The translations under genes and the position numbers were made by a program. Positions 9,109 through 22,400 of a DNA stretch of 64,000 nucleotides are shown in pieces. Within the stretch, counting starts at the first letter, position 1, and each line of letters begins with the position of its first letter. The notes below the pieces were generated by a model that was given only the letters and a program-made list of their open reading frames with translations, was not told the origin of the DNA and ran no database searches. Source of the DNA: a phage. The DNA lies in the sequence record PZ171033.1, one strand, 5' to 3'.

Positions 9109-9561
9109 ATGCAAATCATTTTGAACCAGTCCGAAGTAGAAGCTGCTGTACAGGCTTATGTTGATGATCAAATCAATCTTGCTGGTGACATTAATATTGT
9201 CATCAATGCAGATGGTACTGCCTCCGTTGGTATCAACGAAGAGGTGAGTCATGAAGATGACACTCCACCCTTGGTAGAGAAGAAAACTCGTCGTTCCCGT
9301 AAAAACCCCCAAGAAGCTAAGCATCGTCCGGTAGAACCGGAGCCAGAAGAAGTAGTTGAAGAGGCAAAGGTAGAAGAAACCCAGACCTCTACTGGTGGTC
9401 CGAACGGGAATTCTACGCCGGAACCTGAAGAAGCAGTAGCTGAACCAGAAGCACAAGAAGAAGTTGTGCAGGAAGAGGATATGAAAGAAGACCGTGAGCT
9501 TCCTCCGGAAGAACGACCGGTAACGAAGCCTTCACTGTTCGCTGGCCTTAAACGTAGTTAA
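9109..9561 (+). CDS. hypothetical acidic, Pro/Glu-rich low-complexity protein
   Basis: ORF with strongly acidic PEPEEVVEE-type repeats. Confidence 0.45.
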   Translation: MQIILNQSEVEAAVQAYVDDQINLAGDINIVINADGTASVGINEEVSHEDDTPPLVEKKTRRSRKNPQEAKHRPVEPEPEEVVEEAKVEETQTSTGGPNGNSTPEPEEAVAEPEAQEEVVQEEDMKEDRELPPEERPVTKPSLFAGLKRS

Positions 9562-10282
9562 TCTGGTAGGTGGCTCAGAAGCTGCTGCTATTTGTGGTAG
9601 TGTTCGTAATTCTGATGCTATTGCTTATCAGGATTCTGGACGTGTCGGCTCCATACATAGCATTTATCATCACTGTACTTATACTTTGGAAACTCAGTGA
9701 TAAAAACGGTGGTGACAAGCCGCCAGAGTAACAACAACAACCGAACCAGTGGACTTTAATACTCTCCGAAGTCCACAGGTTCAATCTAAACTAAGCGGAA
9801 AAGTTAGCTTTTTCTTGGGTGTAGAACCTGTTGAAGGAAACAAAGAATTTCACATTGAATAGTTAATATCGTAAAGGGTTCTGTTAGAATCCTTTGAGAT
9901 AGGAACTCCTATCATAACTATTCTTAACTTAATCTTTGCCGTATGGCACTGACGCTAGGGGTGGCCCCCCATCCGTCAGGTAGACTATTTTAAGAATGGG
10001 TTATCACAGCAAATGTAAAGCAACATTCGGGTTAATCAATGGCCTCTCCCTATAGGGGCCATTTCTGAATCTTAGGCTATATCCCAAAGGTTAGTATCTT
10101 TGGGATAAGGCTTCAGATCTCTTATCAACTAACGCTCATGTTGAGCATTCTACTCACACAAGCCCCTATATGGGCTGGGTTAAATGTCGGATAGCATAGC
10201 TACCTACAGCATCGAGATGTTAGGTCTTACATGTAATATAGGGTATAAAGGGAGGACTCGTCCCCTCCCTCCTATTATAATG

Positions 10283-10352
10283 GTCGGGGTAGCACGTAGG
10301 CATGTGCGGATGGTCGCTACTTCCCTCGCTGGTTCGAATCCAGCCCCCGACT
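10283..10352 (+). tRNA. tRNA-like gene (possible pseudo-tRNA)
   Basis: 7-bp acceptor GTCGGGG/CCCCGAC, U8A9, D-arm GCAC-GTAGGCAT-GTGC, T-arm GCTGG-TTCGAAT-CCAGC; anticodon arm imperfect by eye. Confidence 0.4.
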
Positions 10353-10903
10353 TACTGACATCCTATCAATGAGTACATTAGGCTAACGTGCGGAGGTTTA
10401 CACTGTAGCCGGTGTAGGTGGAGAAGACGGCAGGGTAGCTACCTGTGCTTAGTGTACTCTTTGATAGTTTTCGTAAGCGATTATGCGGTTTTTTAGAAAC
10501 GAACCAATAACATAAATGCAAACGATGATGTTGTTCTGATGGCGGCGTAATAGCCTGTAAGTCAGCAAGGTCTTCCGACTCCTTGTAAGCAAATTCGGCG
10601 CAGTGGCCCGCTGTGATTAATAATGGGCACACAACAGGTAAGAGCATTTAGGCTACTGAGAAATCATCCGAGGCAATCAGACCTATCTTCTGTTAAGTGC
10701 TCTTTCCGTTGTGGTGAATGCGCAGGCTGATGCGCAGTGGGACGTGGCTGACTCACGAGGATGGCTCAAGCGAATAAGCAAGCTCGACGCCGCCGAATAA
10801 GCGCCTTATGCCGGAGATCAGCACCGGCCACCACAACAAGTCCAGACGATATCTGAGTGACTATAAAAACAGATGGAGCCAGGTGGAATCCCTGGCAACT
10901 AAT

Positions 10904-10969
10904 TCCGGTGTAGGTACTAGTGTCGTGCACGGCATGAGCATTCTGGTTCGAGTCCAGACGCCGGAACCA
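10904..10969 (+). tRNA. short tRNA-like module ending in encoded CCA
   Basis: T-arm TCTGG-TTCGAGT-CCAGA, acceptor TCCGGTG/CGCCGGA, discriminator A plus CCA; too short for a canonical tRNA. Confidence 0.3.
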
Positions 10970-10971
10970 AT

Positions 10972-11095
10972 TATCAGTTGCACGAGATGGCTTGACATGT
11001 TCAAGTTTGGACTAAGTGTGACACCGCTAGATTGGAGGGCTGCTGCGGTAAGCTATAGACTCCAACCGGAGGTTCGAATCCTTCACTGATAACCA
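10972..11095 (+). ncRNA. oversized tRNA-like RNA (124 nt) ending in encoded CCA
   Basis: Acceptor TATCAGT (10972) pairs with ACTGATA (11085) right after T-arm GGAGG-TTCGAAT-CCTTC; ~50 nt of extra internal sequence. Confidence 0.3.
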
Positions 11096-11177
11096 ATTCA
11101 AAGTAGCATTGCACTAACCCATCCCGGAGTTCAAAGGCCAAACATGGAGCAGTGCTACTCTGAATTAGAAGAATTAT

Positions 11178-11287
11178 GGTGGGTCTGGTGAAGTAGATAG
11201 GGTTCGATTCCCTCCGGTAGAGTAATCTACTAGCGTGCTTGGTGCACGAATAAGACTTAATACTGGTGGTTCAATTCCATCCCCCAC
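11178..11287 (+). ncRNA. oversized tRNA-like RNA (~110 nt)
   Basis: T-arm GGTGG-TTCAATT-CCATC followed by CCCCACT pairing with GGTGGG at 11178; contains a second internal GGTTCGATTCC T-loop-like motif. Confidence 0.25.
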
Positions 11288-11732
11288 TGCCTATTTGAGG
11301 TGTAACAGTTAAATCCAGTTGCCGGAAGTGCTATTCTAGATACGCTGCCAATGTGTGAACGGTAAGGCTGTACAGGACTCGGACTCCCACCTCAAACCAA
11401 AGTCGCCAGATACTTATGGCAAACGGGTAGTAACGAACTAGTCATTCGTCAAACGCCCACCCTATTATGAGTCAGCAAGAACGCCTTCATTTAAACTTAA
11501 ACAAAAAAGCTTAACGCAATAATTATGTAGGGGTATGTAAGGATTGCGAAGAAGGAGCCAGTTAAAGTCTGGCATGACTCACCTAATTGAGGCTGTACTT
11601 ATGTTCTACAGTAGGTGCACAACACTGGGCTGCTACACCCAGAGGTACAGCCTCACCCTATTATGGGTAGCCTATACTAGTTATAGGGCAGATAATCTGT
11701 GGCAGTGTAAGGCTGCACTACCCTTTCATTAA

Positions 11733-11808
11733 TACCCGGTAGGCTTAGTGGTAAAGCCCCACTAGTAAACCAACTAGGACGCAGGTTCGAATCCTGTCCG
11801 GGTAGCCA
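11733..11808 (+). tRNA. tRNA-like gene with encoded CCA
   Basis: Acceptor TACCCGG/CCGGGTA, U8A9, D-arm GGCT-TAGTGGTAA-AGCC, T-arm GCAGG-TTCGAAT-CCTGT, G then CCA; anticodon arm atypical (6-nt loop by eye). Confidence 0.5.
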
Positions 11809-11813
11809 TTTAT

Positions 11814-11898
11814 GCCCACTTAGCTCAGTGGTAGAGCGCAGGAAAGCTTCGAGAGAACAAGGTGTCTGTGGTCACTGGTTCAAATCCAGTAGTGGGTA
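11814..11898 (+). tRNA. tRNA-like gene, long-arm (class II-like) length
   Basis: Canonical D-arm GCTCAGTGGTAGAGC, T-arm ACTGG-TTCAAAT-CCAGT, acceptor GCCCACT/AGTGGGT; 36-nt anticodon/variable region does not fold canonically by eye. Confidence 0.45.
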
Positions 11899-12213
11899 CT
11901 TATTTGCTGCAATATTCCCATAGGGAATGGTGTCGTATACGCCACCTAGTTTCTGGTGAAACTCCAGATGCAGCAATCCATTCAGCAGTAACATAGTCCT
12001 GATTGCATTGCACTCTAAAGACAACACTGGTAAGACAGTCCAGTGGCTGCTATTGTATTGTTATTCCCCTCGACGGGAATTTCGCTAGTGAAGGTAACAC
12101 TTAAAAATCCAAACCCACGTCTTACTGCTATCGGGCTATCAACCCACAGTCGCTTAACACACTAGTGGTAGTAGTTTGACGACCTAGCCTCGTTAGCTGC
12201 GTTAAAGCTACTA

Positions 12214-12249
12214 AGTCCCCTAGAGGGGCGGCTCTAGGGGACTTTTTTA
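12214..12249 (+). terminator. rho-independent terminator
   Basis: 12-bp stem AGTCCCCTAGAG/CTCTAGGGGACT then TTTTTTATTT. Confidence 0.7.
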
Positions 12250-12250
12250 T

Positions 12251-12436
12251 TTGAGTATTAATAGCCGGATAATCAATATGATTGACCTAATCTCAACCCC
12301 GTATGCCTATGAGGTAACGGACAACCGAGGGCATAAGTACTTGGTATTTGCAGGTAGCGTAGCCTATAACAACGCAGTCATGTTTAAGTACAAACTCAAA
12401 CCACTCTATGAGGCTAATAATGGCAACAGTAAGTAA
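12251..12436 (+). CDS. hypothetical protein
   Basis: 61-aa ORF immediately after terminator 12214-12249. Confidence 0.4.
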   Translation: MSINSRIINMIDLISTPYAYEVTDNRGHKYLVFAGSVAYNNAVMFKYKLKPLYEANNGNSK

Positions 12437-13417: not shown

Positions 13418-13448
13418 AAGCCCCTCATTTGAGGGGCTTTTTTATTTT
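13418..13448. terminator. bidirectional terminator between convergent genes
   Basis: AAGCCCCTC-ATTT-GAGGGGCTT then TTTTTATTTT; A-rich on the other side. Confidence 0.7.
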
Positions 13449-16400
13449 AGTTTATCAGGTTCATCCAAGGGTTCAGGTTGTGAGCACGTAAGCCTTGACC
13501 GAAACCGAAGGAGTAACCAAGATTGCCCTGTGCAGCAATACTAAAGATGTTGTCCTGAATAGGCAGGCCAACGTTACCAAACATGGTAGGGGTTGGGGCC
13601 AACATAGCCATAGCAGCATGAACTGGGTTATTACGAATCATGGACACTGCAACTTTTGCAGAACGAATCTTAAAGTTGTAGAACCACATCAGACCAACAC
13701 TTTCCATATACCCACGGAAACGACCTGGCAGACGATCATAGTTAATAAACTCTTCCGTTACACGTCCTAGTGCTTCTTCGCGAGTCTTACCTTTACGCTG
13801 AGTTAATTCATCATAGATGATTGCTTTAGCAATAAAGTCAGAGTACTCAACCGTCTTCTGGATACCCTGGAACAAAGCAGTATCCTTAGTGATAAGTGCA
13901 TAACGACCAGCATTACGTACAGACTTAGGCAGCTTATCAGCCAACTTATCCATGTACTCGTGAAGTTTACCTTCAGTAATCAGGATGTCGTCACGACCAA
14001 TACCAGCGTCTGCAATTGAAGAGAACTCACCTGCTTCTAACAGGGGCCAGATACTCAAACGCTTATGACTATCAGAGATGGACTGAATCTCAGCCTTAAG
14101 TTTACGAATCTGGTTCGGGTTAGTAGCTGCACGTAATTCTGCTTCTGCATCTACCTGACGCAGACGAGATTTCAGATACTGGTTAATCTCAGCAGTTTTC
14201 TGTGGAATGCTCTTAGCAATGTTCTTAACAGGTACACCACGAGCAACCATCTGGTAAAGGTTAGCCAGGAAGTTAACAGCAGGTACGACTACTGACTTAA
14301 CTACAATCAGGGTCTTAGCTTCTTTAACTAAATTCTGAACCAGGTTCTCACCACCCATTACGTATTTATAGGCACGGTTACCGAAGACACCCAACATAGC
14401 TTTCTTGAAGGTATCCAGTGTTTCTTGGGACCAACGAGAGTTACCAGACCAGGCATCACCAACAGAAGCTGCACGATAGCCGAGAGCATCATTGAGCATG
14501 TCACGACGTACCCACAGCTCACCAGGACCAAACAGACTTTCTGCTTTCTGACGTGTTTCACTATTCATCAGCTTAAGTGCATCGGCAGTTACTGGGTCCA
14601 GTTTAGAACCAAGAAGGTTAACGTACTGGGACTTATTAGAAGCAGACATCTTAATGTCGTTCTCATACATGCTATGCAGGTTCTCAATTAGCATATCGTT
14701 GAAACGCTGAGCCTTAGCCTCTTCTACCTGACGACCACGCCATACACCGATTGCACGAGCAAGATGGTTCTCACCCTCAATGTGCTTCAGCATGTTAGGG
14801 TCAATGGATTGCTCATAAGCAACCACATTACCATTGGCATCATATACAGGCAGAAGTGGTTCATTACCACGTTCACCACGAGCCAGTGCTTTAGTGATAC
14901 GATCTACAGAAGGCTTGTCAGTAATACGACCAGCTACCATGGTTCCCATAGTAAAGCCTGTACCAAGGTCCACACCACCAGCAGTATTGCGAACGTTCTG
15001 TAAGATACCCTGTGAGAATGGGGCCTGTGCCTGTACTGGTGCGAAGTAGTAGCTACGAGCAGGACCACGATTAGCAGAGCTACCCTGATATGTACCCAGT
15101 CGTACATAGGATTTCTCAATCAAATCAGCAAACTGACTATCTTCAGCAACAATCAGATTAACACCCTGTTTAGTCTCACTAGGGATATGCCCTTTGTACT
15201 GGTTCAGGGTTGCACGCATATCAGATTTGGCTTTAGCCATTTCATCTTTACGCTGACCAACCAGGTAAGAGGTGGCAAAGTCCATCCCATCAACTTCTGT
15301 CTGAGCCAGTGAAGATAACATCTCACGGTCGGACTTGTTCATTGCTTCCAGTGCATACAGGGTAATCAGTTTATCCAGTTGAGCTACATCTACAGTAGAG
15401 CGTGCAGCCTGACGTTCACCCAGCATACGGGAGATTGCAGTAGCATTACGCAGCAGGTTTTTACCGACAGTACCATTAATCATGTACTGAGCCAGTTGCT
15501 TAGATTTACGGTTAATCAGAGGCCAGTTACGACCAGCTTGTTTCTGCAAATCTGCTTCCAGCTTATTCACTTCACGGTCAACAATCTTCTGGTCAGTCAG
15601 TAAGTCACGGATTTCAGCCAGTGACATAGTGTCACGCAGGACAGCTAAATCTGTTTTACCCATACCAGTATGCATTACTTTCCACTCATCATTAGTCAGC
15701 TTACGGCTGAACTTAGATGCGATAGTAGTAGGCAGATGTTCACGGAACTGCTGACGGTCTGCCTGCACCTGTGCACGTACTGCTTTAATCAAATCGTATA
15801 CAGAAGCATTGCTCTTAGTACGACCGGTTAAGTCATTAACCAGGTCATGGAAAGGTTGCCATACCTTACCCTGGTTCATTGCAGCCATAACACCTTCAGC
15901 TACGATTGCACCATTCTTCTCTGTAGCAATAGCAGCTACCAGTTGTGCAGCATGAGCAGCACCTTTAACCAATGGATTATTGGTATTGGCTGCAACTTCA
16001 CGAGCACCTTCCAAAGCACGGGTAGATAGTACATCAATAGAATCCACCAGATACTGGTTAGCACGGTCAATAGCATTACCAGTAGGAGTAGCAACGGAAT
16101 CATAGAAGGATTCTGCATTAAGACTGGTCTGCATAATCGTCTGAGCCAGTGCATCCATACCTTCCTGTACGTTAGTAGCTTTAGTATCACCTGCTACACG
16201 AGCATTCAGACTAGCCATTGCAGCAGTACCAATGTTAGTCAGCATTGCATCAACGGTATTACCTGATTTCTTATCTGCTTTCATGACAGGAATGTCAGCC
16301 AGTACTTTACGTACTTCTTCACTTACCATTGCCAGACCAACAAAGGTAGGCAGTAAAGAAGATCGACCTTGTGCATCAAACTCAATGTTGTTAGCACCCA

Positions 16401-19400
16401 TGATGGTATCGAACTTCTGCTGTGCATAATAACGATCAGCAGGGTTAGTACTATCTGGGTCAGCCATAAATGCTTCGACGGTCAGATTCTTAGTAACATG
16501 CGTGTAGTATTCCTGTGCACGAGCCATAGCAGCAGGGTTAACAGCAGCCTCGGTAGCCAGTGCAGCAACAATATTGGTAAAGAGACGCTGTTCCTGCATA
16601 TTCATGGTGAAGCCATGAGCCTGAACATCACGAGTTACTTTAGTTGCATTTACTACTGCATCAGAGAACTTACCTTTGCGAATTACTTGCTGTACTGGTT
16701 CTGAACCAATGTAGTTAGTAATTAGCTTATCAAAGGTTTTCCCTAGCTCTTCCAGACGAGTATTTTCACCATACGCTTTGTTATGGAACAGAGTAGTATC
16801 TTTGGCTACAGCAGCAGTAGGAGCTTGCCCACGCATTACTACAGCAGAGTTAAACAGTAAGCCAGAGAACATATCTTCTGCATTAGCAGGAGCTTTCTTA
16901 CGTCCAAATACCAGACGTTTGATTGCTTCATATACAGCCTGAACCATAGTTTTAAGTGCAGTGGTTTTCTTCTGCTTACTAATCAGTTCTCGGTTGGTTA
17001 AACCCCAAGCCATGTACTCGTTCAGTGCAGCAGCTTTAGCCATTGCTGGTTCAATAAAGCCATTGGATAGGTGACCATTAATGGTATTCAGTGCATCAGC
17101 ATATGCTTCTCGTACTGCCGGAGATTCATCCCTAACATCCAGAGCACGGAACTGATTCATCAGGTCTTCGATGTTCTGGACTGCTTCATTAGGAGTGCCT
17201 TCATAGTGAGCCAGTACAGATTCAAAAGTAGAAGCATGTACCAATTCATGAACCAGAGTCTCTAAGGAAGGGGTAACTAAGTAGATGGTTTTATCTTCAA
17301 AGTTAGTCCAGCCGTATGCATTACCAGCTTCAGCAGCTTCAATATCTTCCGGTGCTGGGCGAGTAATGTTCTTCTCAATAGCATAGGCATCCAATTGAGC
17401 AGGTGTACCGTAAACAACTTTATAGTCTTTAGCAGCAAGGGATTTCTGTATTTCTTTCAATACTTCTTGCTGTTCAGGAGACATCTCTTTAGCCAGTTTA
17501 GTAATGGCAGTGTTAGACAGCAGACGTACACCAGACTTCAGTACACGACCAACCTGTTCCATCGCCGGTACTTCTTCCACTGGTTCTGCTTTAGTAGCAC
17601 GTACTGCTTCACGACGCTTATTTAATTCAGCATCAAACAGTTCGTTCAGCTTAGCTACTTGCTGGTCTACAGTAAGACCTTCCAGAGAGATTTTACCGTT
17701 GTTCACATAAGGAGCACCTACGGCAGCCATCTGGTCAACAGTGACTTGTACCTGGTCCATTACCTTGTGACGAATATCTACACCCAGAGCAATGTTACGC
17801 AGGTTACGTTCAATCTGCTCAGCACCGACACGTAACAGGTCATCAGTAGCACCCTCACGTTGGTCATACTCCAGAGCAGACTTAGCGATAGCCTGTTTGG
17901 TTTCATCAGACAGTTTACTGAAGTCTACGTTCTTCATGAACTTAGCGTAGGAGTCATAAACATTCTTGATAGGGTTACCCTGCCAGGAAGTATATACAGC
18001 CTCATTAGCTTTGCGACTTGCATCAGTGATGTCATTGATACCAATGTTCATACCATCAAAGATTTTCAGGGTATTCTTCGGAGCACCTTTCATAGTAGAA
18101 AGTGTCTGCATCATCATGCCATCACCAGTACCGATGGTCATAAATGGAATACCTGCAACACCTGCCTGTGAAGGAGCATAAATGCTCATTGGCACACGCA
18201 TACGGTCATCTAAGTTAGTAGCCAGTACTTGGTTAGCAACATCAGTATTCTCACTACCAGCAATGTAGAAAGTCTGTGAACCAGTCTCAATCATTGGAGC
18301 CAGTGAAGATAATGATTCCTGGATTTCATTCAGTTCTTTCTGCGTTAAGAAATCACCTTTCTTCCAGGTTGGGTCTTTTTCTTTTTCTGCCAGCTTAGCC
18401 TGTACTGCTTGCTGGAACATATCCTGCAATACCAGAGATTGAATCTGGGTAGCCTTCTGCAAGTTCTCGGTAGAGTGCATCAGACCTTCACCAACAGTAT
18501 TACGGATACCAGTACGCATTGGTTCAACGAACAGGTGGAGCATGTTCTCTTGTAAGTTCTTCAGGGCATTACCGGATACGGTAAATTTCTGGGGGTCTAA
18601 CTTACCAGTCAGAGCACCATCTACTTGCTGAATAGACAACTCACCTTTACGCATAACTGGAACATTACCAGTCAGTGCTTCCATAGAAGTAAGGAAAGTA
18701 TCCAACATAGCCTGAGCATCAGCTTCAGACGCAGCCTCCTTACCAAACATTGCCATAGCTGGGGAAATGCTAGGGTCAGCAGCTCGTGCTTGCAGAACGT
18801 CACTGAAGCGTTCGTAGATGGTATCAGTAATTGCACTGACCATCTTGCCAGCAATACCACGAGCACCAGAACCATAGATGGTAATGGTCAGTGGGTTTTT
18901 AGCAATACCACGTTTCAGGTCCAGAGTACCGTCTTCATTCAGGTTAAAGTCTTTAATGAACAAGTCCATTAACTTCTGGAGATGATTCATCTGGCTCATA
19001 ACTGGAACGTTGTTACGGTAAGTAGTACGTAACTCATTCAGTGCTTGTTGAAGACCATTGGTAGATGCTTCATACAAGTCAACATTATCGTCGATAGAAC
19101 AATGTTCGTTCATCGTTTTACCAGCACGACCAAAGAACAAACCACCTTTGGCAGTGTTCTTAATCCAGTCTGGAGTGAACTTACCACCAGTCATTAATAC
19201 CATTGCGTTGATTGGGCCGTTGGTTACACCATCAGCTTCAACGTACAGTGGAGTAGTAAAATTAGCACGGTCATCACTGTTCAGGTAACGGGCATATTCC
19301 ATCAGAGCCATGAGAGCTACGAAGGATTTATCACTACCCAGAGAGGTCTTCAGGATGTCTACTGCATCTGTCGGTAAGTGACCAGACTTATCAAACTCAA

Positions 19401-22400
19401 CCATCATATCAACAGCAGGTTTCAGTTTACCTTCCAGAGCTTTAGTTAACTCTTCAGACATAACTTCACGGGACATTTTATGTACCTTGATGCCTAATGC
19501 CTGAGCCAGACCTAACTGGAAGTCAGAGAACGCTTGGCTGTTTTCATTACTCAAGTCGATAGTAGAGAAGGTTGGTAGGATTGCTTCACGAACCAGCTTA
19601 CTGGATTGTGGGTTGTTCTTACCAAGCATCTGCATACGACCTACACGGGTCATGTTATAACCGTAGTGGATAGGTGTATCCAGACCATTCTCTTGTTCTC
19701 GTATCTGATTAATTACACCGAACAGAGAATCATATGCCATAGACACGGACAGGTTTTTACCTTCCAAAGATTTAGCAGTGTTCGCGTTCAGTAATTCTGG
19801 ATTAAGAGTACCAGCACCCATCAGTTCCAGAATGTTGTCACGCCCCAATGCTTCATAGAAGTTAACCATTGGCATATGTACACGGAACTCGGTAGCCTGT
19901 TCAGCTTTCAGTGCAGCCTTCTGTTCAGGGGTATTCTTAACAGCAGGGTTACGCAACTGAGTCTGAGCCACAGAAGGAATGTCATCACCAAAGTACATTT
20001 TCTCTTCTGGTTCTAAGAGGACAGCTTCCTCAATAGCAGTAGGGAATTTATTAATGGCATCATTGTCATCCAACTTCTCAATGGTATACAGACCAACAGT
20101 CTTATTGGAGTCTGGGTCAATCTCAGACACATCCAACATAGACTCTTTAACTTCACCCATCTCAATGAGAGAAGACAGAATCTCTGTAGCCATTGCCATT
20201 GGGATACCTTTGGTATAACCCAGCGGTGCATTAGGATTACGATTCAAACCCCAGTAGGATTCAATCTTCTGAGCCAGTGAGTTAGTAGCTTCAACCAGGG
20301 TCTGGGCATTCTCGAACTCAGCCAGAATACCTTCTGGTAACAGAGATGCTTCTACGCCTGTAATAGCAGCTACGTCTTTCATATCTTTAATGGCAGCATT
20401 CTGTGTAGTAGTCAGTCGCCATTGCAAACCAGCAAGCACAGCAGTCTCTAACAACTGGTCGTTGAACTTAAAGGTATCCCCATCTTGTTCAACTATATTC
20501 AGCAGTTTGCCACCTACCCAACGGTTAGCTTCAGTACCTTCTGCAAAACGTTTACCAACGTTCTTATTAGCAAGGAACTTAGCCAGACGTTCAGACAAAG
20601 TAGTCTTCAGAGTTTCACCAAAGTCCATTAAGTCCTGATAACGCTTAATCACATCACTAGTGAGAGCGTTATTTTCTTTTTGAGTGAATGCCTCAAAGCG
20701 AGCAGCAGAAGACAGTGCTTGCTTAATATCAGTCAAAGGAGATTCTGAACCAATGGTACGGGACTTAGGTTCTTCCGGTAAGGTAAATGCTTTCAGGAAC
20801 TGGTTCGGTGTCTTTTCATTGTTATAGACAGGGAACACTGTTTCCATTTCTGTTTTGGTTTCAGCTACTTCCTGGATGGTATCCTCATTCTTGAGAATAG
20901 CATCTACTGTTTCAGGCTTAGTAGTAGAGACTTCTTCTGTTTTTGGACTAGTCTCCTTAGTAGGAGCAGTCTTATTTTCTACCACAGGTTTAGCTTTAGG
21001 CTGTACAGTAGTAGTGTCCTCTTGCACTGGTGCAGGAGATTCATCAACCTGATTCACTGGTTCATTAGTCTGTTGAGACTGAGTGGCATCAAGACCACCT
21101 TGACGGAACTCTTTAACTACCTGGGCAGCAGGCTTGTTCAGACGTGAATCCAACGAGGTAACTTTCACATGAGAAACATTAAGCTCCGGGTAAGCCGTAG
21201 CAAGTGCATTAGCAATATCAGCTACGGTTTTGGCTTCCAGTCCTACTTGCTGGGCAAACTTAACAGACTTGGTATCGTAAGGATTGACACCGAGGCCAGT
21301 ACGACTACGTACCCATTCACGGGAAGGCGAGAGAGCCTGATAATGAACAGACTTATTCTTATCCGCATTCCCCGAAATCAGATGCTCATTCAACGCTCCG
21401 ACCTTATTCTGCATGTGCTGGGCGAACTTCATAAAGTCGCTCAGATAAGCGGAGGCCAAATCGAAGTTACCAGAGTTATACGCAGAACGAATGCGTTTCG
21501 CATGTTGCAACGCAGAGTACTGTCCTTCATTAGAACGAGACTCGTCGGTTTTAATCTGTTTACTAACAATGTCTTGAGGACGTAAGCCTAGTTCTTCTGC
21601 TTTAGCGTCGAACTCACGTGCACCCTGTAACAAGGCAGCAGCAGATTGCAGGGCAGCACGTTGACGATTCCCCAGTGTAATCTTACCTTCACTTGCGTGC
21701 TTCAGAACCATGTTCACTGAATCTGCATCCAGTACTTCTGGAGACACATCAGCAGCCATAGCAATGTTGTTTGCTTGGGCTTGATTAGCTTCTTCAGTAG
21801 CTTTCAGCTTACCTGCTTCAGCCTGTTCCTGAATCATGGAATGGATGGCACGGAATGCACGGAGTACTTTAGGGGTATTCTGTACGTTAGCCATCAAGCC
21901 AGAGAACTGGTCTACGATTGTAGCAGCAGGAGAACCTTGTTCCAGATTAGCCAGAGCACCTGGGTCACGGTTAATGAAGCTATCCATAGACATGATGTTG
22001 TCATACATCTGGATTGCAGCTTCCATTTGAACGTTAGGGTCTTCAGCAGTATTAACCAGGTCAGCCATCTTCTGAATAGCTTCAACACGGTTAGTGGAAC
22101 CAGAAACAGCTTCACGGATTGCCGGGTTAGCTTGTTCCAATTCTACCGGGTCAAACTTCATTGCCTGAGTTAAGTCAGCAGCATACTGGGTAGCAGCAGC
22201 TTTCTCTTCTGGAGTGATGTCCATTGCATCCACTGCTTCTTGTACAGTTGCCTGTGCTTGTTCTGCCTGAGCAGCAGCTTCCTGTGCAGCAGCATTAACC
22301 GTAGCATCAGCTACAGGGGATGCTTGTTCATTACGCTTAGCAACTTCTTCACCACGTTGAATCAGGATGTTAGTAAGAGGGGATGCAGCTTTTGCTAATG

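What the first reader, a model, noticed from the sequence alone, without database searches (positions are those of the whole stretch)
9562..12250. 2.6-kb ORF-free region with seven T-arm motifs and several tRNA-like genes with atypical anticodon arms or sizes
Seven GGTTCGAATCC-type T-loops occur, all plus-oriented. Three modules have proper acceptor, D and T arms (10283, 11733, 11814) but anticodon arms that do not fold canonically by eye. Others end in an encoded CCA yet are too short (10904-10969, 66 nt) or too long (10972-11095, 124 nt; 11178-11287, ~110 nt). This could be a mix of tRNAs, pseudo-tRNAs, interrupted tRNAs or tRNA-like decoys.
Basis: seen in the sequence. Interest (0 to 1): 0.7.

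Follow-up and report, generated by a model that had tools for sequence, protein, structure and literature searches.

The report
Phage array of tRNA-like and tmRNA-like RNAs
This stretch of an N4-like E. coli phage is a long, tightly folded non-coding RNA array built from tRNA-shaped RNAs that cannot decode normally, a tmRNA-like piece that keeps an intact degradation-tag reading frame but has no tRNA-like head, and conserved framing hairpins; the same parts are shared, unannotated, by hundreds of unrelated phages including P1 and HK620.

Summary
Seven T-loop motifs, all on the + strand, lie within 1.6 kb, against about 0.1 expected by chance. The window is a Gamaleyavirus (G7C-like, N4-like) genome.

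After a 53-aa membrane ORF and a truncated ORF, 9860-12250 is non-coding. A conserved sigma70-like promoter (9863-9890) and a strong terminator (12213-12250) bracket it.

The six tRNA-shaped modules are real. Related phages show compensatory base changes in their stems. None is canonical beyond M1:
- M1 is near-canonical (anticodon CGC).
- M7 has a 6-nt anticodon loop.
- M8 has a 22-nt loop.
- M4 is a 66-nt RNA without a D arm that ends in ACCA.
- M5 and M6 are oversized.

- 10464-10628 is homologous to the coding piece of two-piece tmRNA. It has a resume codon, the tag ANDDVVLMAA*, helix 5 and two pseudoknots (20 of 33 pairs covary), but no tRNA-like domain.
- Conserved "framing hairpins" and a cloverleaf scaffold each carry variable cargo.
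- These modules recur in 460-623 phage records and in about 10% of complete E. coli genomes, and match no Rfam family at its gathering score.

The function is inferred, not shown. Most likely the array is one precursor, cut at its tRNA-like structures, that acts on host translation or ribosome rescue.

The parts
9570..9731 (+). 53-aa hydrophobic small ORF. It lies inside the reported interval but is not part of the RNA array.
   Evidence: ORF list. The translation VAQKLLLFVVVFVILMLLLIRILDVSAPYIAFIITVLILWKLSDKNGGDKPPE looks like a membrane peptide.
9791..9859 (+). Truncated remnant of the gp47.2-like small gene of relatives.
   Evidence: tblastn of St11Ph5 gp47.2 matches residues 9-31 only, followed by a stop.
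9863..9890 (+). Sigma70-like promoter with an extended -10 (TTAATA-16-TGnTAGAAT); the inferred start of the array transcript.
   Evidence: Consensus scan. The site is 96-98% conserved in all Gamaleyavirus relatives and sits at the boundary of the conserved block. Function is inferred.
9893..10281 (+). Highly structured leader made of stem-framed hairpins (for example 9920-9997 and 10069-10118). 10098-10276 also occurs in phages such as Bas88 and SU7.
   Evidence: MFE -133.9 kcal/mol, z = -6.5, 0 of 100 shuffles as stable. Inverted repeats I2, I8, I18 and I20. 92-95% conserved in relatives. Matches in Bas88/SU7.
10282..10353 (+). M1: near-canonical tRNA-like gene with anticodon loop GUCGCUA (CGC). 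It has a U.U mismatch in the anticodon stem, no G3:U70 pair and no encoded CCA.
   Evidence: ARAGORN tRNA-Ala(cgc). Rfam gives only tRNA-Sec at 28.3 bits, below GA 47. Cloverleaf MFE, z = -2.3. Compensatory G27:C43 to A:U, and U30.U40 to A:U, in relatives.
10363..10467 (+). Framing hairpin 1 (arms CUAUCAAUGAGUACAUU / AGUGUACUCUUUGAUAG) enclosing a 63-nt cargo.
   Evidence: Inverted repeat I1. MFE z = -4.2. Same register and GCAUU..AGUGC core as the hairpin family.
10464..10628 (+). tmRNA-like coding module without a tRNA-like domain. It contains a 5' element UAGUUUUCGU (10466-10475), resume codon GCA at 10518, tag ORF 10518-10550 (ANDDVVLMAA*), helix 5 at 10536-10565 with the stop codon in its loop, pseudoknot PK2 at 10566-10598 and pseudoknot PK3 at 10600-10628.
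   Evidence: Rfam tmRNA_permuted 31.2 bits, E 6.7e-4, and beta_tmRNA over the tag region. Homology to bona fide permuted tmRNAs in L235 and L191. 33 pairs are 88.5% paired against 41-45% in slid controls; 20 pairs have compensatory changes; 0 of 500 shuffles match. The 10-codon ORF is intact in 27 of 27 true modules, and the last codon is always Ala, using all four codons.
10629..10715 (+). Framing hairpin 2, the consensus type (CACAAC-A-GG-U-AAGAGCAUU ... AGUGCUCUU-U-CC-GUUGUG), with a 47-nt cargo. The 3' arm contains a boxA-like UGCUCUUU.
   Evidence: MFE z = -3.4. 15 of 18 pairs have compensatory changes across 42 arm pairs (that set was pre-selected for pairing).
10710..10835 (+). Cloverleaf scaffold RNA. 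Acceptor UGUGGUG (10710-16) / CACCACA (10829-35); D-like hairpin UGCGCA-GGCUGA-UGCGCA; a 68-nt cargo at the anticodon-arm position; T-like arm GCCGG-AGAUCAGCA-CCGGC. The D-like loop GCUGA is complementary to the T-like loop UCAGC.
   Evidence: 28 scaffold variants carry 22 distinct cargos of 26-156 nt. 20 pairs are 94.8% paired against 25-55% in slid controls, and 7 pairs have compensatory changes. A Pseudomonas phage carries 10715-10830 at 91% identity.
10839..10900 (+). Module Z: a recurrent element (CCAGACGAUAUCUGAGUGRCU..AAAAACAGAUGG + hairpin GCCAGG-UGGAAUC-CCUGGC). In other phages it sits directly 5' of a framing hairpin.
   Evidence: Found in 16 loci including non-Gamaleyavirus contigs. 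Function unknown.
10904..10969 (+). M4: a 66-nt tRNA-shaped RNA with no D stem. It has acceptor UCCGGUG/CGCCGGA, a short hairpin in place of the anticodon arm, a canonical T arm and an encoded ACCA.
   Evidence: Sequence and fold. The central hairpin is kept with a different sequence in L075. Not called by ARAGORN or Rfam.
10972..11095 (+). M5: a 124-nt tRNA-shaped RNA with acceptor UAUCAGU/ACUGAUA, a T arm, an encoded ACCA and large extra arms.
   Evidence: Fold. Compensatory U3:A70 to C:G in the acceptor and A:U to G:C in the T stem among relatives.
11095..11166 (+). Framing hairpin 3, a divergent copy (AAUUCAAAGUAGCAUU / AGUGCUACUCUGAAUU).
   Evidence: Inverted repeat I3. MFE z = -3.7, 0 of 200 shuffles as stable.
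11178..11289 (+). M6: a 112-nt tRNA-shaped RNA with two T-arm hairpins. Acceptor GGUGGG/CCCACU; no terminal CCA.
   Evidence: Fold. A double compensatory change in the acceptor (G2,U3 to A,C with AC to GU) and A:U to G:C in the inner stem. 11193-11283 matches T4-like phages VR5 and VR25 at 77%.
11293..11732 (+). Further stem-framed modules: UUUGAGGUG..CACCUCAAA at 11293-11397 and the hairpin at 11588-11655. 11500-11560 is shared with 9 IMG/VR loci.
   Evidence: MFE z = -2.1. Inverted repeat I5. Shared segments.
11733..11808 (+). M7: a tRNA-like gene with normal acceptor, D and T arms and an encoded GCCA, but a 5-bp anticodon stem (CUAGU/ACUAG) closing a 6-nt loop AAACCA.
   Evidence: ARAGORN tRNA-???. 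Rfam tRNA 39.3 bits. Cloverleaf MFE z = -2.3. Compensatory G6:C67 to A:U. Annotated 'tRNA-OTHER' in relatives.
11814..11898 (+). M8: a tRNA-like gene whose anticodon stem (CAGG/UCUG) closes a conserved 22-nt loop AAAGCUUCGAGAGAACAAGGUG. Its acceptor and T arm are shared with the 'tRNA-Ile(aat)' of relatives.
   Evidence: Rfam tRNA 53.9 bits with the loop treated as an insertion. Chimeric relation to the relatives' tRNA. The same loop sits on the HK620 scaffold. 93% identity in more than 120 Kuttervirus genomes and a 111-kb phage carrying tRNA genes (EP_H11). The acceptor covaries in SFP10.
11899..12212 (+). Structured 3' modules, for example the stem UUGCUGCA..UGCAGCAA at 11904-11976.
   Evidence: MFE z = -3.8, 0 of 100 shuffles as stable.
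12213..12250 (+). Intrinsic terminator (13-bp stem followed by a T run); the inferred end of the array transcript.
   Evidence: Terminator scan. Inverted repeat I7, 100% complementary.

Best explanation
The interval from about 9860 to 12250 is one highly structured, non-coding transcription unit of a Gamaleyavirus. It is an array of RNA cassettes drawn from a pool shared by many phages of Enterobacteria.

Shown:
- It contains six tRNA-shaped RNAs. Their helices are kept by compensatory change, but their anticodon regions are replaced, shortened or expanded.
- It contains one module homologous to the coding piece of two-piece (permuted) tmRNA. This keeps the resume codon, a 10-codon proteolysis-type tag frame, helix 5 and two pseudoknots, and has no tRNA-like domain.
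- It contains conserved 'framing hairpins' and a cloverleaf scaffold that carry variable inserts.

Inferred:
- The array is transcribed from the conserved sigma70-like promoter to the terminator as one precursor.
- The tRNA-like structures act as punctuation for the host tRNA-processing enzymes (RNase P and the 3' trimming and CCA enzymes). The hairpins act as processing or stabilising stems.
- Each module is thereby released as a stable small RNA that displays a specific arm on a tRNA-like frame.
- The products act on the host translation apparatus. The tmRNA-like RNA feeds into, or interferes with, ribosome rescue. The tRNA mimics bind or divert proteins that recognise tRNA shape.

The confidence of 0.6 blends about 0.9 for the anatomy and about 0.3 for the functional account.
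For: Identity and context: the closest records are G7C-like phages. The region lies between the gp47 homolog and the virion RNA polymerase.

Clustering: seven + strand T loops against about 0.1 expected.

Structure:
- M1 and M7 fold as cloverleaves; the hairpins have z = -3.4 to -4.2.
- The flanking segments have z = -6.5, -2.1 and -3.8.
- Compensatory changes occur in M1, M4, M5, M6 and M7 among relatives and in the M8 acceptor between this phage and SFP10.

tmRNA-like module:
- Rfam tmRNA_permuted 31.2 bits, E 6.7e-4.
- Sequence homology through the tag and first pseudoknot to ARAGORN- and Rfam-verified permuted tmRNAs: L235 at 124 bits, L191 at 87 bits.
- 20 of 33 pairs are compensatory, and 88.5% are paired against 41-45% in slid controls.
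- The tag frame is intact in 27 of 27 modules. The final codon is Ala with all four synonymous codons, Leu uses CUG/UUG, and the stop uses UAA/UGA.

Hairpin and scaffold: covariation supports both, and the scaffold carries 22 distinct cargos.

Cassette behaviour: blocks are present or absent among close relatives, with breakpoints at module ends.

Spread:
- 623 phage records match some part.
- 460 records carry the tmRNA-like module, including P1, HK620, Felix O1-like, Kuttervirus and 46-48 kb siphoviruses.
- 559 of 5426 complete E. coli genomes have it; the one checked lies in a prophage between Q and holin.

Transcription: the promoter-like site is conserved in all relatives, and the terminator is strong. 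In Bas80, L124 and a Felix O1-like contig, a consensus promoter sits immediately 5' of the tmRNA-like module. In HK620 the array lies in the constitutive pR'-to-tR' leader.
Against: - No expression, processing or aminoacylation data were available. The promoter and the processing steps are inferred from sequence only.
- The tmRNA-like module is below Rfam's gathering score (31.2 against 47).
- It has no acceptor or T-arm partner. A search for a complementary acceptor 3' strand beside a T arm within +/-3 kb found nothing consistent. How its tag frame could be read is therefore unexplained.
- None of the tRNA-like acceptor stems has the G3:U70 alanine identity pair.
- The hairpin set used for covariation was pre-selected for pairing, and related sequences inflate shuffle statistics.
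- Conserved arms could partly reflect recombination hot spots rather than RNA function.
- The variable 'cargo' could be neutral spacer in some cases.
Confidence: 0.6

Rival explanations
1. The tRNA-shaped RNAs are decoys. They mimic the tRNA body so as to soak up host anti-phage nucleases or toxins that attack tRNAs, or other tRNA-binding factors. The variable arms reflect an arms race.
For: The acceptor and T-arm geometry is kept while the anticodon region is non-decoding. The scaffold mimics the tRNA elbow by loop-loop complementarity. The modules sit next to genuine phage tRNA genes in many phages. The cargo is diverse.
Against: The best-known tRNA-targeting defences recognise specific anticodon loops (my knowledge), and these RNAs lack them. 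No defence or counter-defence gene is linked to the array. This reading does not explain the coding-constrained tag frame.
Confidence: 0.2
2. The region is evolutionary debris: decayed tRNA and tmRNA pseudogenes and recombination scars in a dispensable spacer, with no present function.
For: The mosaic presence and absence among close relatives shows that individual modules are dispensable. The tmRNA-like module has no tRNA-like domain. Annotation pipelines call these genes pseudo, OTHER or nothing.
Against: Compensatory substitutions occur in every module tested. The tag frame is intact in 27 of 27 modules with synonymous variation. Identity of 77-93% is kept across unrelated phage families and even a Pseudomonas phage. 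The folding energies are extreme.
Confidence: 0.08
3. It is an ordinary phage tRNA gene cluster that supplies decoding tRNAs for codon-usage matching.
For: ARAGORN and Rfam call three of the modules tRNA. Relatives are annotated with tRNA-Ala, -Ile, -Cys and -Thr. M1 becomes a perfect cloverleaf in L005.
Against: Only M1 has a 7-nt anticodon loop. M7 has 6 nt, M8 has 22 nt, and M4 to M6 have no anticodon arm of normal form. The relatives' 'tRNA-Ile(aat)' and 'tRNA-Cys(aca)' have an unusual A at position 34. M1 has anticodon CGC but lacks the G3:U70 identity pair.
Confidence: 0.05
4. The tmRNA-like RNA is an antagonist of host ribosome rescue. Either its conserved 5' element base-pairs with the tag-coding region of host tmRNA, or the RNA titrates SmpB, S1 or RNase R, so that host trans-translation is blocked or redirected during infection.
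For: UAGUUUUCGU (10466-10475) is perfectly complementary to E. coli tmRNA nt 97-106, which are tag codons 3-6. All 19 variants keep 9-12 contiguous pairs in that register. There is a precedent for a partial phage tmRNA that inhibits host tmRNA: the TLD-only RNA of phage DS6A (PMC4131195).
Against: The match alone is not significant (BLAST E 0.14), and the whole-RNA duplex energy equals that of shuffles. The element is also the homolog of the tmRNA D-loop (L235 ACUAGUUUCGAC). Salmonella phages (KFS-SE2, Kuttervirus) keep the E. coli-type element although, from memory, the Salmonella tag region differs (GAAACC). Antisense action would not require a conserved tag frame.
Confidence: 0.1
5. The conserved inverted repeats act at the DNA level, as recombination or cassette-exchange sites or as N4-type hairpin promoters or origins, and RNA structure is incidental.
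For: Module boundaries coincide with conserved arms, and cassettes are exchanged between relatives and between phage families. The short boundary words CACAAC/GUUGUG recur between slots.
Against: The same elements occur in lambdoid, P1-like, Felix O1-like and Kuttervirus phages, which do not use N4 hairpin promoters. They are always in the sense orientation of a transcription unit, beside tRNA genes. G.U pairs are tolerated only in the RNA sense. Homologous recombination does not require intramolecular pairing.
Confidence: 0.05

Closest known systems
Two-piece (circularly permuted) tmRNA: the coding piece (Rfam RF04321 / RF01850)
   Same: The resume region AUAAAU-GCA-AAC-GAU is shared. So are a 10-codon tag ending in hydrophobic-Ala-Ala/Val-Ala, the stop codon in the loop of helix 5, and H-type pseudoknots after the tag. 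The module aligns to verified permuted tmRNAs carried on viral contigs.
   Different: There is no acceptor strand, no T arm, no CCA and no partner acceptor piece. The P2/PK1 region is about 45 nt instead of about 95 nt. The score is below Rfam's gathering threshold. The module is flanked by framing hairpins and, in several phages, begins right at a promoter.
TLD-only tmRNA of mycobacteriophage DS6A and other CDS-less tmRNAs (PMC4131195, PMC11915505)
   Same: Both are phage-borne partial tmRNAs that retain only one functional half. DS6A shows that such halves can act on the host system (it inhibits host tmRNA).
   Different: DS6A keeps the tRNA-like head and lacks the tag. The module here is the converse: tag and pseudoknots without the head. 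No such form is listed in those surveys. M4 (66 nt, no D stem, ACCA end) resembles a mini-TLD in outline but lacks G3:U70.
Phage tRNA gene clusters with accompanying stable RNAs (the T4 tRNA region with species 1 and 2 RNAs; T5 and Felix O1 tRNA clusters). This comparison is from my own knowledge.
   Same: Both are polycistronic arrays of tRNA and tRNA-like genes processed by host RNase P, and both include stable RNAs of unknown function. Here the modules sit inside or beside such clusters in Felix O1-like, Kuttervirus, P1 and Bas80 phages.
   Different: In this window no module except perhaps M1 is a plausible decoder. The conserved framing hairpins, the cloverleaf scaffold with exchangeable cargo and the tmRNA-like module are not features I know from T4 or T5.
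Bacterial Y RNA-like YrlA (RF02553) and engineered 'tRNA scaffold' RNAs
   Same: A tRNA-like module serves as a frame attached to another functional RNA element. The scaffold here keeps the acceptor and an elbow-like loop-loop contact while the arm at the anticodon position varies.
   Different: The YrlA model scores only 18.7 bits against a gathering score of 69. No Ro/Rsr gene or Ro-binding helix is present. The T-like loop is 9 nt and is not a canonical T loop.
rRNA operon leader elements (boxA antitermination site; RNase III processing stems). This comparison is from my own knowledge.
   Same: The consensus 3' arm CAGUGCUCUUU matches rrn boxA CACUGCUCUUU in 10 of 11 positions. Long imperfect stems flank the functional RNAs in a long untranslated transcript that would need protection from Rho.
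   Different: Here the boxA-like word is base-paired, and it is lost in divergent copies that keep the pairing. No test of NusB/E binding or RNase III cleavage was possible.

Membership tests
Canonical tRNA (RF00005) | Score at or above the family's gathering threshold, or a call by a tRNA finder | tested here: met
   M7 scores 39.3 bits and M8 53.9 bits (GA 29). ARAGORN calls M1 and M7. M4, M5 and M6 are called by neither, even at E up to 10.
Canonical tRNA (RF00005) | A 5-bp anticodon stem closing a 7-nt loop with U33 and a 3-base anticodon | tested here: not met
   M7 has a 6-nt loop AAACCA. M8 has a 22-nt loop. M4 to M6 have no such arm. Only M1 has a 7-nt loop (GUCGCUA), with a U.U mismatch in the stem that is repaired in L005.
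Canonical tRNA (RF00005) | Aminoacylation and decoding on the ribosome | not testable with these tools
   This needs charging assays or tRNA sequencing. M1 has anticodon CGC but lacks the G3:U70 alanine identity pair (sequence).
tmRNA (RF00023 / RF04321 / RF01850) | An mRNA-like domain: a resume codon followed by a short tag frame that ends in a hydrophobic Ala-rich C-terminus, with the stop codon in helix 5 | tested here: met
   The tag is ANDDVVLMAA* at 10518-10550. The frame is intact in 27 of 27 modules with synonymous variation. All 4 outer pairs of helix 5 covary.
tmRNA (RF00023 / RF04321 / RF01850) | Pseudoknots flanking the tag frame | tested here: met
   Two H-type pseudoknots lie 3' of the tag. 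Pairs with compensatory change: PK2 stem 1, 3 of 5; PK2 stem 2, 4 of 4; PK3 stem 1, 2 of 4; PK3 stem 2, 4 of 4. A PK1 equivalent is not evident.
tmRNA (RF00023 / RF04321 / RF01850) | A tRNA-like domain: an acceptor stem with G3:U70, a T arm and a 3' CCA, in one piece or as a base-paired acceptor piece | tested here: not met
   The 7 nt at the position of the acceptor 5' strand are not conserved. No complementary strand next to a T arm was found within +/-3 kb in any phage. ARAGORN finds no tmRNA in the window, HK620, Bas80, P1 or Kuttervirus loci.
tmRNA (RF00023 / RF04321 / RF01850) | Score at or above the family's gathering threshold | tested here: not met
   31.2 bits against GA 47 (RF04321) and 18.5 against 84 (RF01850). 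P1 scores 26.3 bits. The genuine permuted tmRNA in L235 scores 124.1 and 87.5.
YrlA / bacterial Y RNA (RF02553) | A model match at gathering score, and a Ro-binding helix | tested here: not met
   18.7 bits against GA 69. The match merely spans the T arm of M7 and the D arm of M8.
Self-cleaving ribozymes (hammerhead, twister, pistol, hatchet) as processing elements | A model match at gathering score in the window | tested here: not met
   There are no such matches in the window even at E up to 10. One related prophage cargo (L027) scores Hammerhead_1 at 24.7 bits against GA 34.
rrn-type boxA antitermination element | A conserved single-stranded boxA (UGCUCUUUAACA) that binds NusB/NusE | tested here: inconclusive
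   UGCUCUUU is present in hairpin 2 and in most consensus copies. It is base-paired and is replaced in divergent copies (UGCGCUUC, UACUAUUC, CGCCCUGA). Binding cannot be tested here.

The most novel reading that the evidence does not exclude
Hundreds of phages of Enterobacteria, including the model phages P1 and HK620, carry a previously unrecognised 'headless' tmRNA: a tag-coding and pseudoknot RNA under purifying selection for its 10-residue tag but with no tRNA-like domain. If the tag really is translated, these phages use a new form of trans-translation. In it, the mRNA-like template is supplied in trans to a head provided by the host tmRNA or by one of the array's tRNA mimics, perhaps tethered through the 10-nt complementarity to host tag codons 3-6. 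This would let the phage re-specify the fate of proteins released from stalled ribosomes. The array as a whole would then be a modular 'RNA toolkit', built on tRNA-like frames and framing hairpins, that no RNA family database describes.
Probability: 0.15. Interest if true: 0.92.

Novelty: new variant of a known kind. Interest (0 to 1): 0.78.

Why it matters
Phage tRNA genes are usually read as codon-usage helpers or, more recently, as replacements for tRNAs destroyed by host defences. This locus shows a third situation: a whole transcription unit of tRNA-shaped RNAs that cannot decode, combined with a tmRNA-derived module.

All of it is built from cassettes that circulate among N4-like, lambdoid, P1-like, Felix O1-like, Kuttervirus and siphovirus genomes and sit unannotated in about 10% of complete E. 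coli genomes.

It matters for three reasons:
1. It explains why annotation pipelines give inconsistent calls here (tRNA-Ala, -Ile, -Cys, -Pro, -Leu, OTHER, or hypothetical proteins).
2. It offers tractable model systems (P1, HK620) for asking what tRNA mimics and a head-less tmRNA do.
3. The conserved tag frame makes a concrete, testable prediction: phage-specific C-terminal tags on host or phage proteins.

Tried and rejected
- **Introns in M5, M6 or M8.** Rejected. There are no intron-family matches, and the M8 'insert' is a conserved loop that also sits on another scaffold.
- **A complete one-piece or two-piece tmRNA assembled from window modules.** M1 or M4 were considered as the acceptor piece. 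Rejected: neither acceptor strand is complementary to the sequence 5' of the module, there is no G3:U70, and a systematic search found no partner.
- **The framing hairpin as the permuted acceptor stem plus intervening loop.** Rejected: no T arm abuts its 5' arm, no CCA follows it, and most hairpins are not next to a tmRNA-like module.
- **Integron attC-like sites.** Rejected: the GTT/AAC core is not conserved in variants (GAUAGU, GAUGUG).
- **CRISPR-repeat mimics, type III toxin-antitoxin repeats, retron RNAs.** Considered from memory. There are no tandem identical units and no linked genes, so these were not pursued.
- **Sarcin-ricin-loop mimicry by the M8 loop.** Only a C-GNRA-G mini-hairpin is shared; rejected by eye.
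- **Global antisense pairing of the module with E. coli tmRNA.** The duplex energy equals that of shuffles.
- **Host-specific adaptation of the 5' element in Salmonella phages.** Not seen.
- **Literature searches** for the sequences, for tmRNA-like or ssrA-like phage elements and for P1 found no description. The P1 genome paper could not be opened.
- **Small ORFs annotated over the region in relatives** overlap M4 and M5 and are taken to be spurious.

Full report
**1. What the window is**

The best matches of 9500-12300 are G7C-like N4-like coliphages (Gamaleyavirus, Schitoviridae) at 84-94% identity. Only one record covers 80% or more of the query. In annotated relatives the region lies after the ssDNA-binding protein gene (gp45), gp46 and gp47, and before the oppositely oriented virion RNA polymerase. 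In the window these are the ORF at 9109-9561 and the 3456-aa ORF at 13447-23817.

**2. Check of the observation**

- The T-loop pattern GGTTCRAWTCC (up to 1 mismatch) occurs 10 times in the window. Seven copies lie at 10331-11887, all on the + strand. The expectation is 2.7 per window, and no shuffle reaches 10.
- ARAGORN reports only 10282-10353 (tRNA-Ala cgc) and 11733-11808 (tRNA-??? with a two-base anticodon).
- Rfam at gathering score reports tRNA at 11733-11805 and 11814-11898, the latter with a 24-nt insertion in the anticodon loop.
- The 5' end needs a correction. 9570-9731 encodes a plausible 53-aa membrane peptide, and 9791-9859 is a truncated remnant of a small gene present in relatives.
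- A sigma70-like promoter with an extended -10 (9863-9890) is 96-98% conserved in all relatives. A 13-bp-stem terminator (12213-12250) closes the region. These bracket about 2.35 kb of non-coding sequence.
- That sequence folds far better than shuffles: z = -6.5, -2.1 and -3.8 for the three inter-module stretches.

**3. The tRNA-shaped modules are maintained RNAs**

MFE folds give cloverleaves for M1 and M7 and multi-armed tRNA-like shapes for M4, M5 and M6. Among only 3-8 distinct Gamaleyavirus copies there are already compensatory changes:

| Module | Change seen in relatives |
|---|---|
| M1 | Anticodon stem G27:C43 to A:U; the U.U mismatch is repaired to A:U in L005 |
| M4 | Central hairpin rebuilt with a different sequence |
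| M5 | Acceptor U3:A70 to C:G; T stem A:U to G:C |
| M6 | Double change in the acceptor; A:U to G:C in an inner stem |
| M7 | Acceptor G6:C67 to A:U |

The M6 change shows that the apparent CCA is inside the acceptor strand.

M8 shares its acceptor and T arm with the 'tRNA-Ile(aat)' found at the same place in relatives, but it has a different D arm and anticodon arm. Its 22-nt loop AAAGCUUCGAGAGAACAAGGUG is nearly identical in three settings:
- HK620-type scaffolds;
- more than 120 Kuttervirus genomes;
- a 111-kb phage carrying tRNA genes (EP_H11).

The acceptor stem is completely different but still paired in SFP10. Decay is therefore not the explanation, and neither are ordinary decoding tRNAs (except perhaps M1).

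**4. A tmRNA-derived module**

- A permissive Rfam scan hit tmRNA_permuted (31.2 bits, E 6.7e-4) and beta_tmRNA over 10447-10599.
- The sequence reads AUAAAU-GCA AAC GAU GAU GUU GUU CUG AUG GCG GCG UAA, which encodes ANDDVVLMAA*.
- Aligning homologs from HK620, an E. coli prophage, Bas80 and relatives showed the same frame with different residues, for example ANEEMYLAVA and ANNETYLMVA.
- A scan of IMG/VR for the resume region found 45 distinct modules. It also found genuine permuted tmRNAs. L235 is called tmRNA* by ARAGORN and scores 124 bits (RF04321) and 87.5 bits (beta_tmRNA), with tag ANDERFLMAA. L191 is the other.
- A profile of the phage modules aligns to L191 and L224 through the tag and the first downstream pseudoknot.
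- On a 35-sequence alignment, my proposed structure has 33 pairs: helix 5 with the stop codon in its loop, plus two H-type pseudoknots. 88.5% of cells pair, against 41-45% when partners are slid. 20 pairs show changes on both sides, and no shuffle reaches the observed values.
- I then selected modules without reference to the frame, using the resume word plus the PK3 loop word. All 27 true modules have their first stop at codon 11. The last codon is always Ala and uses GCG, GCU, GCC and GCA. Leu uses CUG and UUG. The stop uses UAA and UGA. The other two frames are littered with stops. The two exceptions are unrelated coding genes.
- This is the signature of a translated tag.
- Yet there is no tRNA-like domain. 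The seven bases where the acceptor 5' strand should be are unconserved. In Bas80, L124 and a Felix O1-like contig a consensus promoter places the RNA 5' end at the conserved UAGUUUUCG element. No partner acceptor strand could be found.
- Surveys of tmRNA list 79 phage sequences and TLD-only or CDS-less forms, but no head-less form.

**5. Framing hairpins and a cloverleaf scaffold**

- Scanning IMG/VR for the invariant word ACAACAGGTAAGAGCATT (window 10631) returned more than 120 loci.
- In all of those inspected (86 clusters), the word is the 5' arm of an imperfect hairpin, CACAAC-A-GG-U-AAGAGCAUU [40-200 nt variable] AGUGCUCUU-U-CC-GUUGUG.
- The window has three copies: 10363-10467, 10629-10715 and 11095-11166. 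Their z-scores are -3.4 to -4.2.
- Across 42 arm pairs, 15 of 18 positions show compensatory change. The caveat is that candidates were required to pair.
- Directly 3' of many hairpins lies a conserved cloverleaf: UGUGGUG-AA-UGCGCA/GGCUGA/UGCGCA-[cargo]-GCCGG/AGAUCAGCA/CCGGC-CACCACA. In the window this is 10710-10835.
- There are 28 scaffold variants carrying 22 different cargos of 26-156 nt. Seven of 20 pairs show compensatory change, and 94.8% of cells pair against 25-55% in slid controls.
- The D-like loop (GCUGA) and the T-like loop (UCAGC) are complementary. This suggests an elbow-like contact, but both are invariant so it cannot be tested by covariation.
- In some loci a genuine tRNA occupies the same slot: Arg-UCU in L024 and Gly-UCC in L090.
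- HK620 shows the full pattern: hairpin, tmRNA-like module, hairpin, scaffold, tR'.

**6. Cassette behaviour and spread**

- Among close relatives the region is a mosaic. Blocks end at 10278, 10450, 10552, 10838, 10905, 10972, 11095, 11285, 11397, 11585, 11728, 11808 and 11870, which are module boundaries.
- Parts of the region match 623 phage records.
- The tmRNA-like module alone matches 460 records. These include Klebsiella N4-likes, Sashavirus, 46-48 kb siphoviruses, HK620/HK633, Felix O1-like, Kuttervirus and P1-like phages, almost always with no annotation.
- In phage P1 it lies between the dmt terminator and tRNA-Asn/Thr, with tag ANDDLMMVAA*, both pseudoknots and a following hairpin.
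- 559 of 5426 complete E. coli genomes contain it. The example examined is a lambdoid prophage, between the Q antiterminator and holin.
- In HK620 it lies between qut and the late terminator, in the constitutively made leader RNA.
- M4 to M6 are largely restricted to Gamaleyavirus and Klebsiella N4-likes (95 records). A part of M6 occurs in T4-like phages.

**7. How it most likely works**

Shown: the anatomy, the structural selection, the coding-type constraint on the tag, and the modular exchange.

Inferred:
- It is a single transcript running from promoter to terminator.
- The host tRNA-processing enzymes cut it at the tRNA-like structures, with the hairpins acting as processing or protective stems.
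- This releases small RNAs that present specific arms on tRNA-like frames.

Because the frames are conserved while the inserts vary, I take the frames to be generic handles for processing and stability, and the inserts or arms to be the effectors. The tmRNA ancestry, the tRNA mimicry and the constant association with real tRNA genes point to the translation and ribosome-rescue machinery as the target. I put about 0.9 on the anatomical description and about 0.3 on this functional account.

**8. Unresolved points**

How a tag frame without a tRNA-like head could be read is the central puzzle.

One lead is that the invariant 5' element UAGUUUUCGU is perfectly complementary to E. coli tmRNA nt 97-106 (tag codons 3-6), and all variants keep 9-12 pairs in that register. 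Four things weaken it:
- The match is not significant on its own (E 0.14).
- The element is also the homolog of the tmRNA D-loop.
- Whole-RNA pairing is no better than shuffles.
- Salmonella phages do not adapt it.

The consensus 3' hairpin arm resembles rrn boxA, which would suit a long untranslated transcript. However, it is base-paired and is not kept in divergent copies.

**9. Comparison and novelty**

The nearest known things are the following:
- the coding piece of two-piece tmRNA (same tag, helix 5 and pseudoknots; no head);
- the TLD-only RNA of phage DS6A (the converse half);
- phage tRNA clusters with stable RNAs of unknown function;
- YrlA-type tRNA-like modules.

The window is not a member of the tmRNA family, because a defining feature (the tRNA-like domain) was tested and not met. 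M7 and M8 score as tRNA but fail the anticodon-loop criterion. No Rfam 15 family matches the hairpin, the scaffold or module Z. My literature searches found no description.

I rate it a new variant of known kinds (tRNA-like and tmRNA-like RNAs), arranged in an array architecture that I have not seen described.

Noticed in passing
L242 2493-2760 (phage P1, OP279344.1 about 64941-65208): The model phage P1 carries the head-less tmRNA-like module (tag ANDDLMMVAA*, PK2, PK3) followed by a framing hairpin. It lies in the unannotated gap between the dmt terminator and tRNA-Asn/tRNA-Thr.
   Followed up: partly
window 10466-10475: The invariant 5' element UAGUUUUCGU of the tmRNA-like module is perfectly complementary to E. 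coli tmRNA nt 97-106 (tag codons 3-6, D-E-N-Y). All 19 variants keep 9-12 contiguous pairs in that register. The match is not significant alone (E 0.14), and the element is also readable as the D-loop homolog.
   Followed up: partly
window 10696-10713 and the hairpin family in L015-L134: The consensus 3' arm CAGUGCUCUUU matches the rrn boxA region CACUGCUCUUU in 10 of 11 positions. Some copies have the lambda-type GCUCUUA. This may be an antitermination signal for a long untranslated transcript, but it is base-paired and is lost in divergent copies.
   Followed up: partly
L235 1742-2151 and L191 1392-1734 (IMG/VR contigs): These are genuine circularly permuted (two-piece) tmRNA genes on viral contigs, with tags ANDERFLMAA and ANDAFYGDTAIAA. 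They are the closest complete relatives of the head-less module.
   Followed up: partly
L027 1317-1363 (- strand of the locus; E. coli-type prophage contig): The cargo of one framing hairpin contains a hammerhead-like core (CUGACGAG...CGAAAC). It scores Hammerhead_1 at 24.7 bits (GA 34, E 0.016), which hints that some cargos are self-cleaving ribozymes.
   Followed up: partly
window 10725-10730 and 10818-10822: The D-like loop GGCUGA and the T-like loop AGAUCAGCA of the cloverleaf scaffold contain complementary pentamers (GCUGA/UCAGC). This suggests a Watson-Crick 'elbow' in place of the tRNA D-loop/T-loop contact. Both are invariant, so the idea cannot be tested by covariation.
   Followed up: no
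window 11838-11859; L013 3307-3336; L243 1494-1579: A conserved 22-nt loop with a C-GNRA-G mini-hairpin (UUC-GAGA-GAA here, UUC-GGAA-GAA in HK620) followed by CAAGGUG. It is displayed on three different tRNA-like frames in N4-like, lambdoid and Kuttervirus phages. Its partner is unknown.
   Followed up: partly
L001 3537-3615, L010 6624-6702 and the equivalents in other relatives: Relatives carry 'tRNA-Ile(aat)' and 'tRNA-Cys(aca)' genes of 75-79 nt with A at position 34. This is unusual for bacterial-type decoders, so they may be further non-decoding mimics.
   Followed up: no
window 10839-10900: Module Z is a roughly 60-nt element. Its hairpin covaries (CCAGG/CCUGG, CCGG/CCGG, CUGG/CCAG). It recurs directly upstream of framing hairpins in unrelated prophage contigs and matches no known family.
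   Followed up: partly
window 10808-11089 (+), 10378-10647 (-), 10184-10372 (+): Mechanical ORFs of 62-93 aa overlap the structured RNAs. The first is annotated as a hypothetical protein in phage UE-S5a. These are probably annotation artefacts.
   Followed up: partly
window 10410-10420 and 10905-10915: The 11-mer CCGGTGTAGGT occurs twice: in the cargo of framing hairpin 1 and at the 5' end of M4. This may be a trace of duplication or recombination between modules.
   Followed up: no
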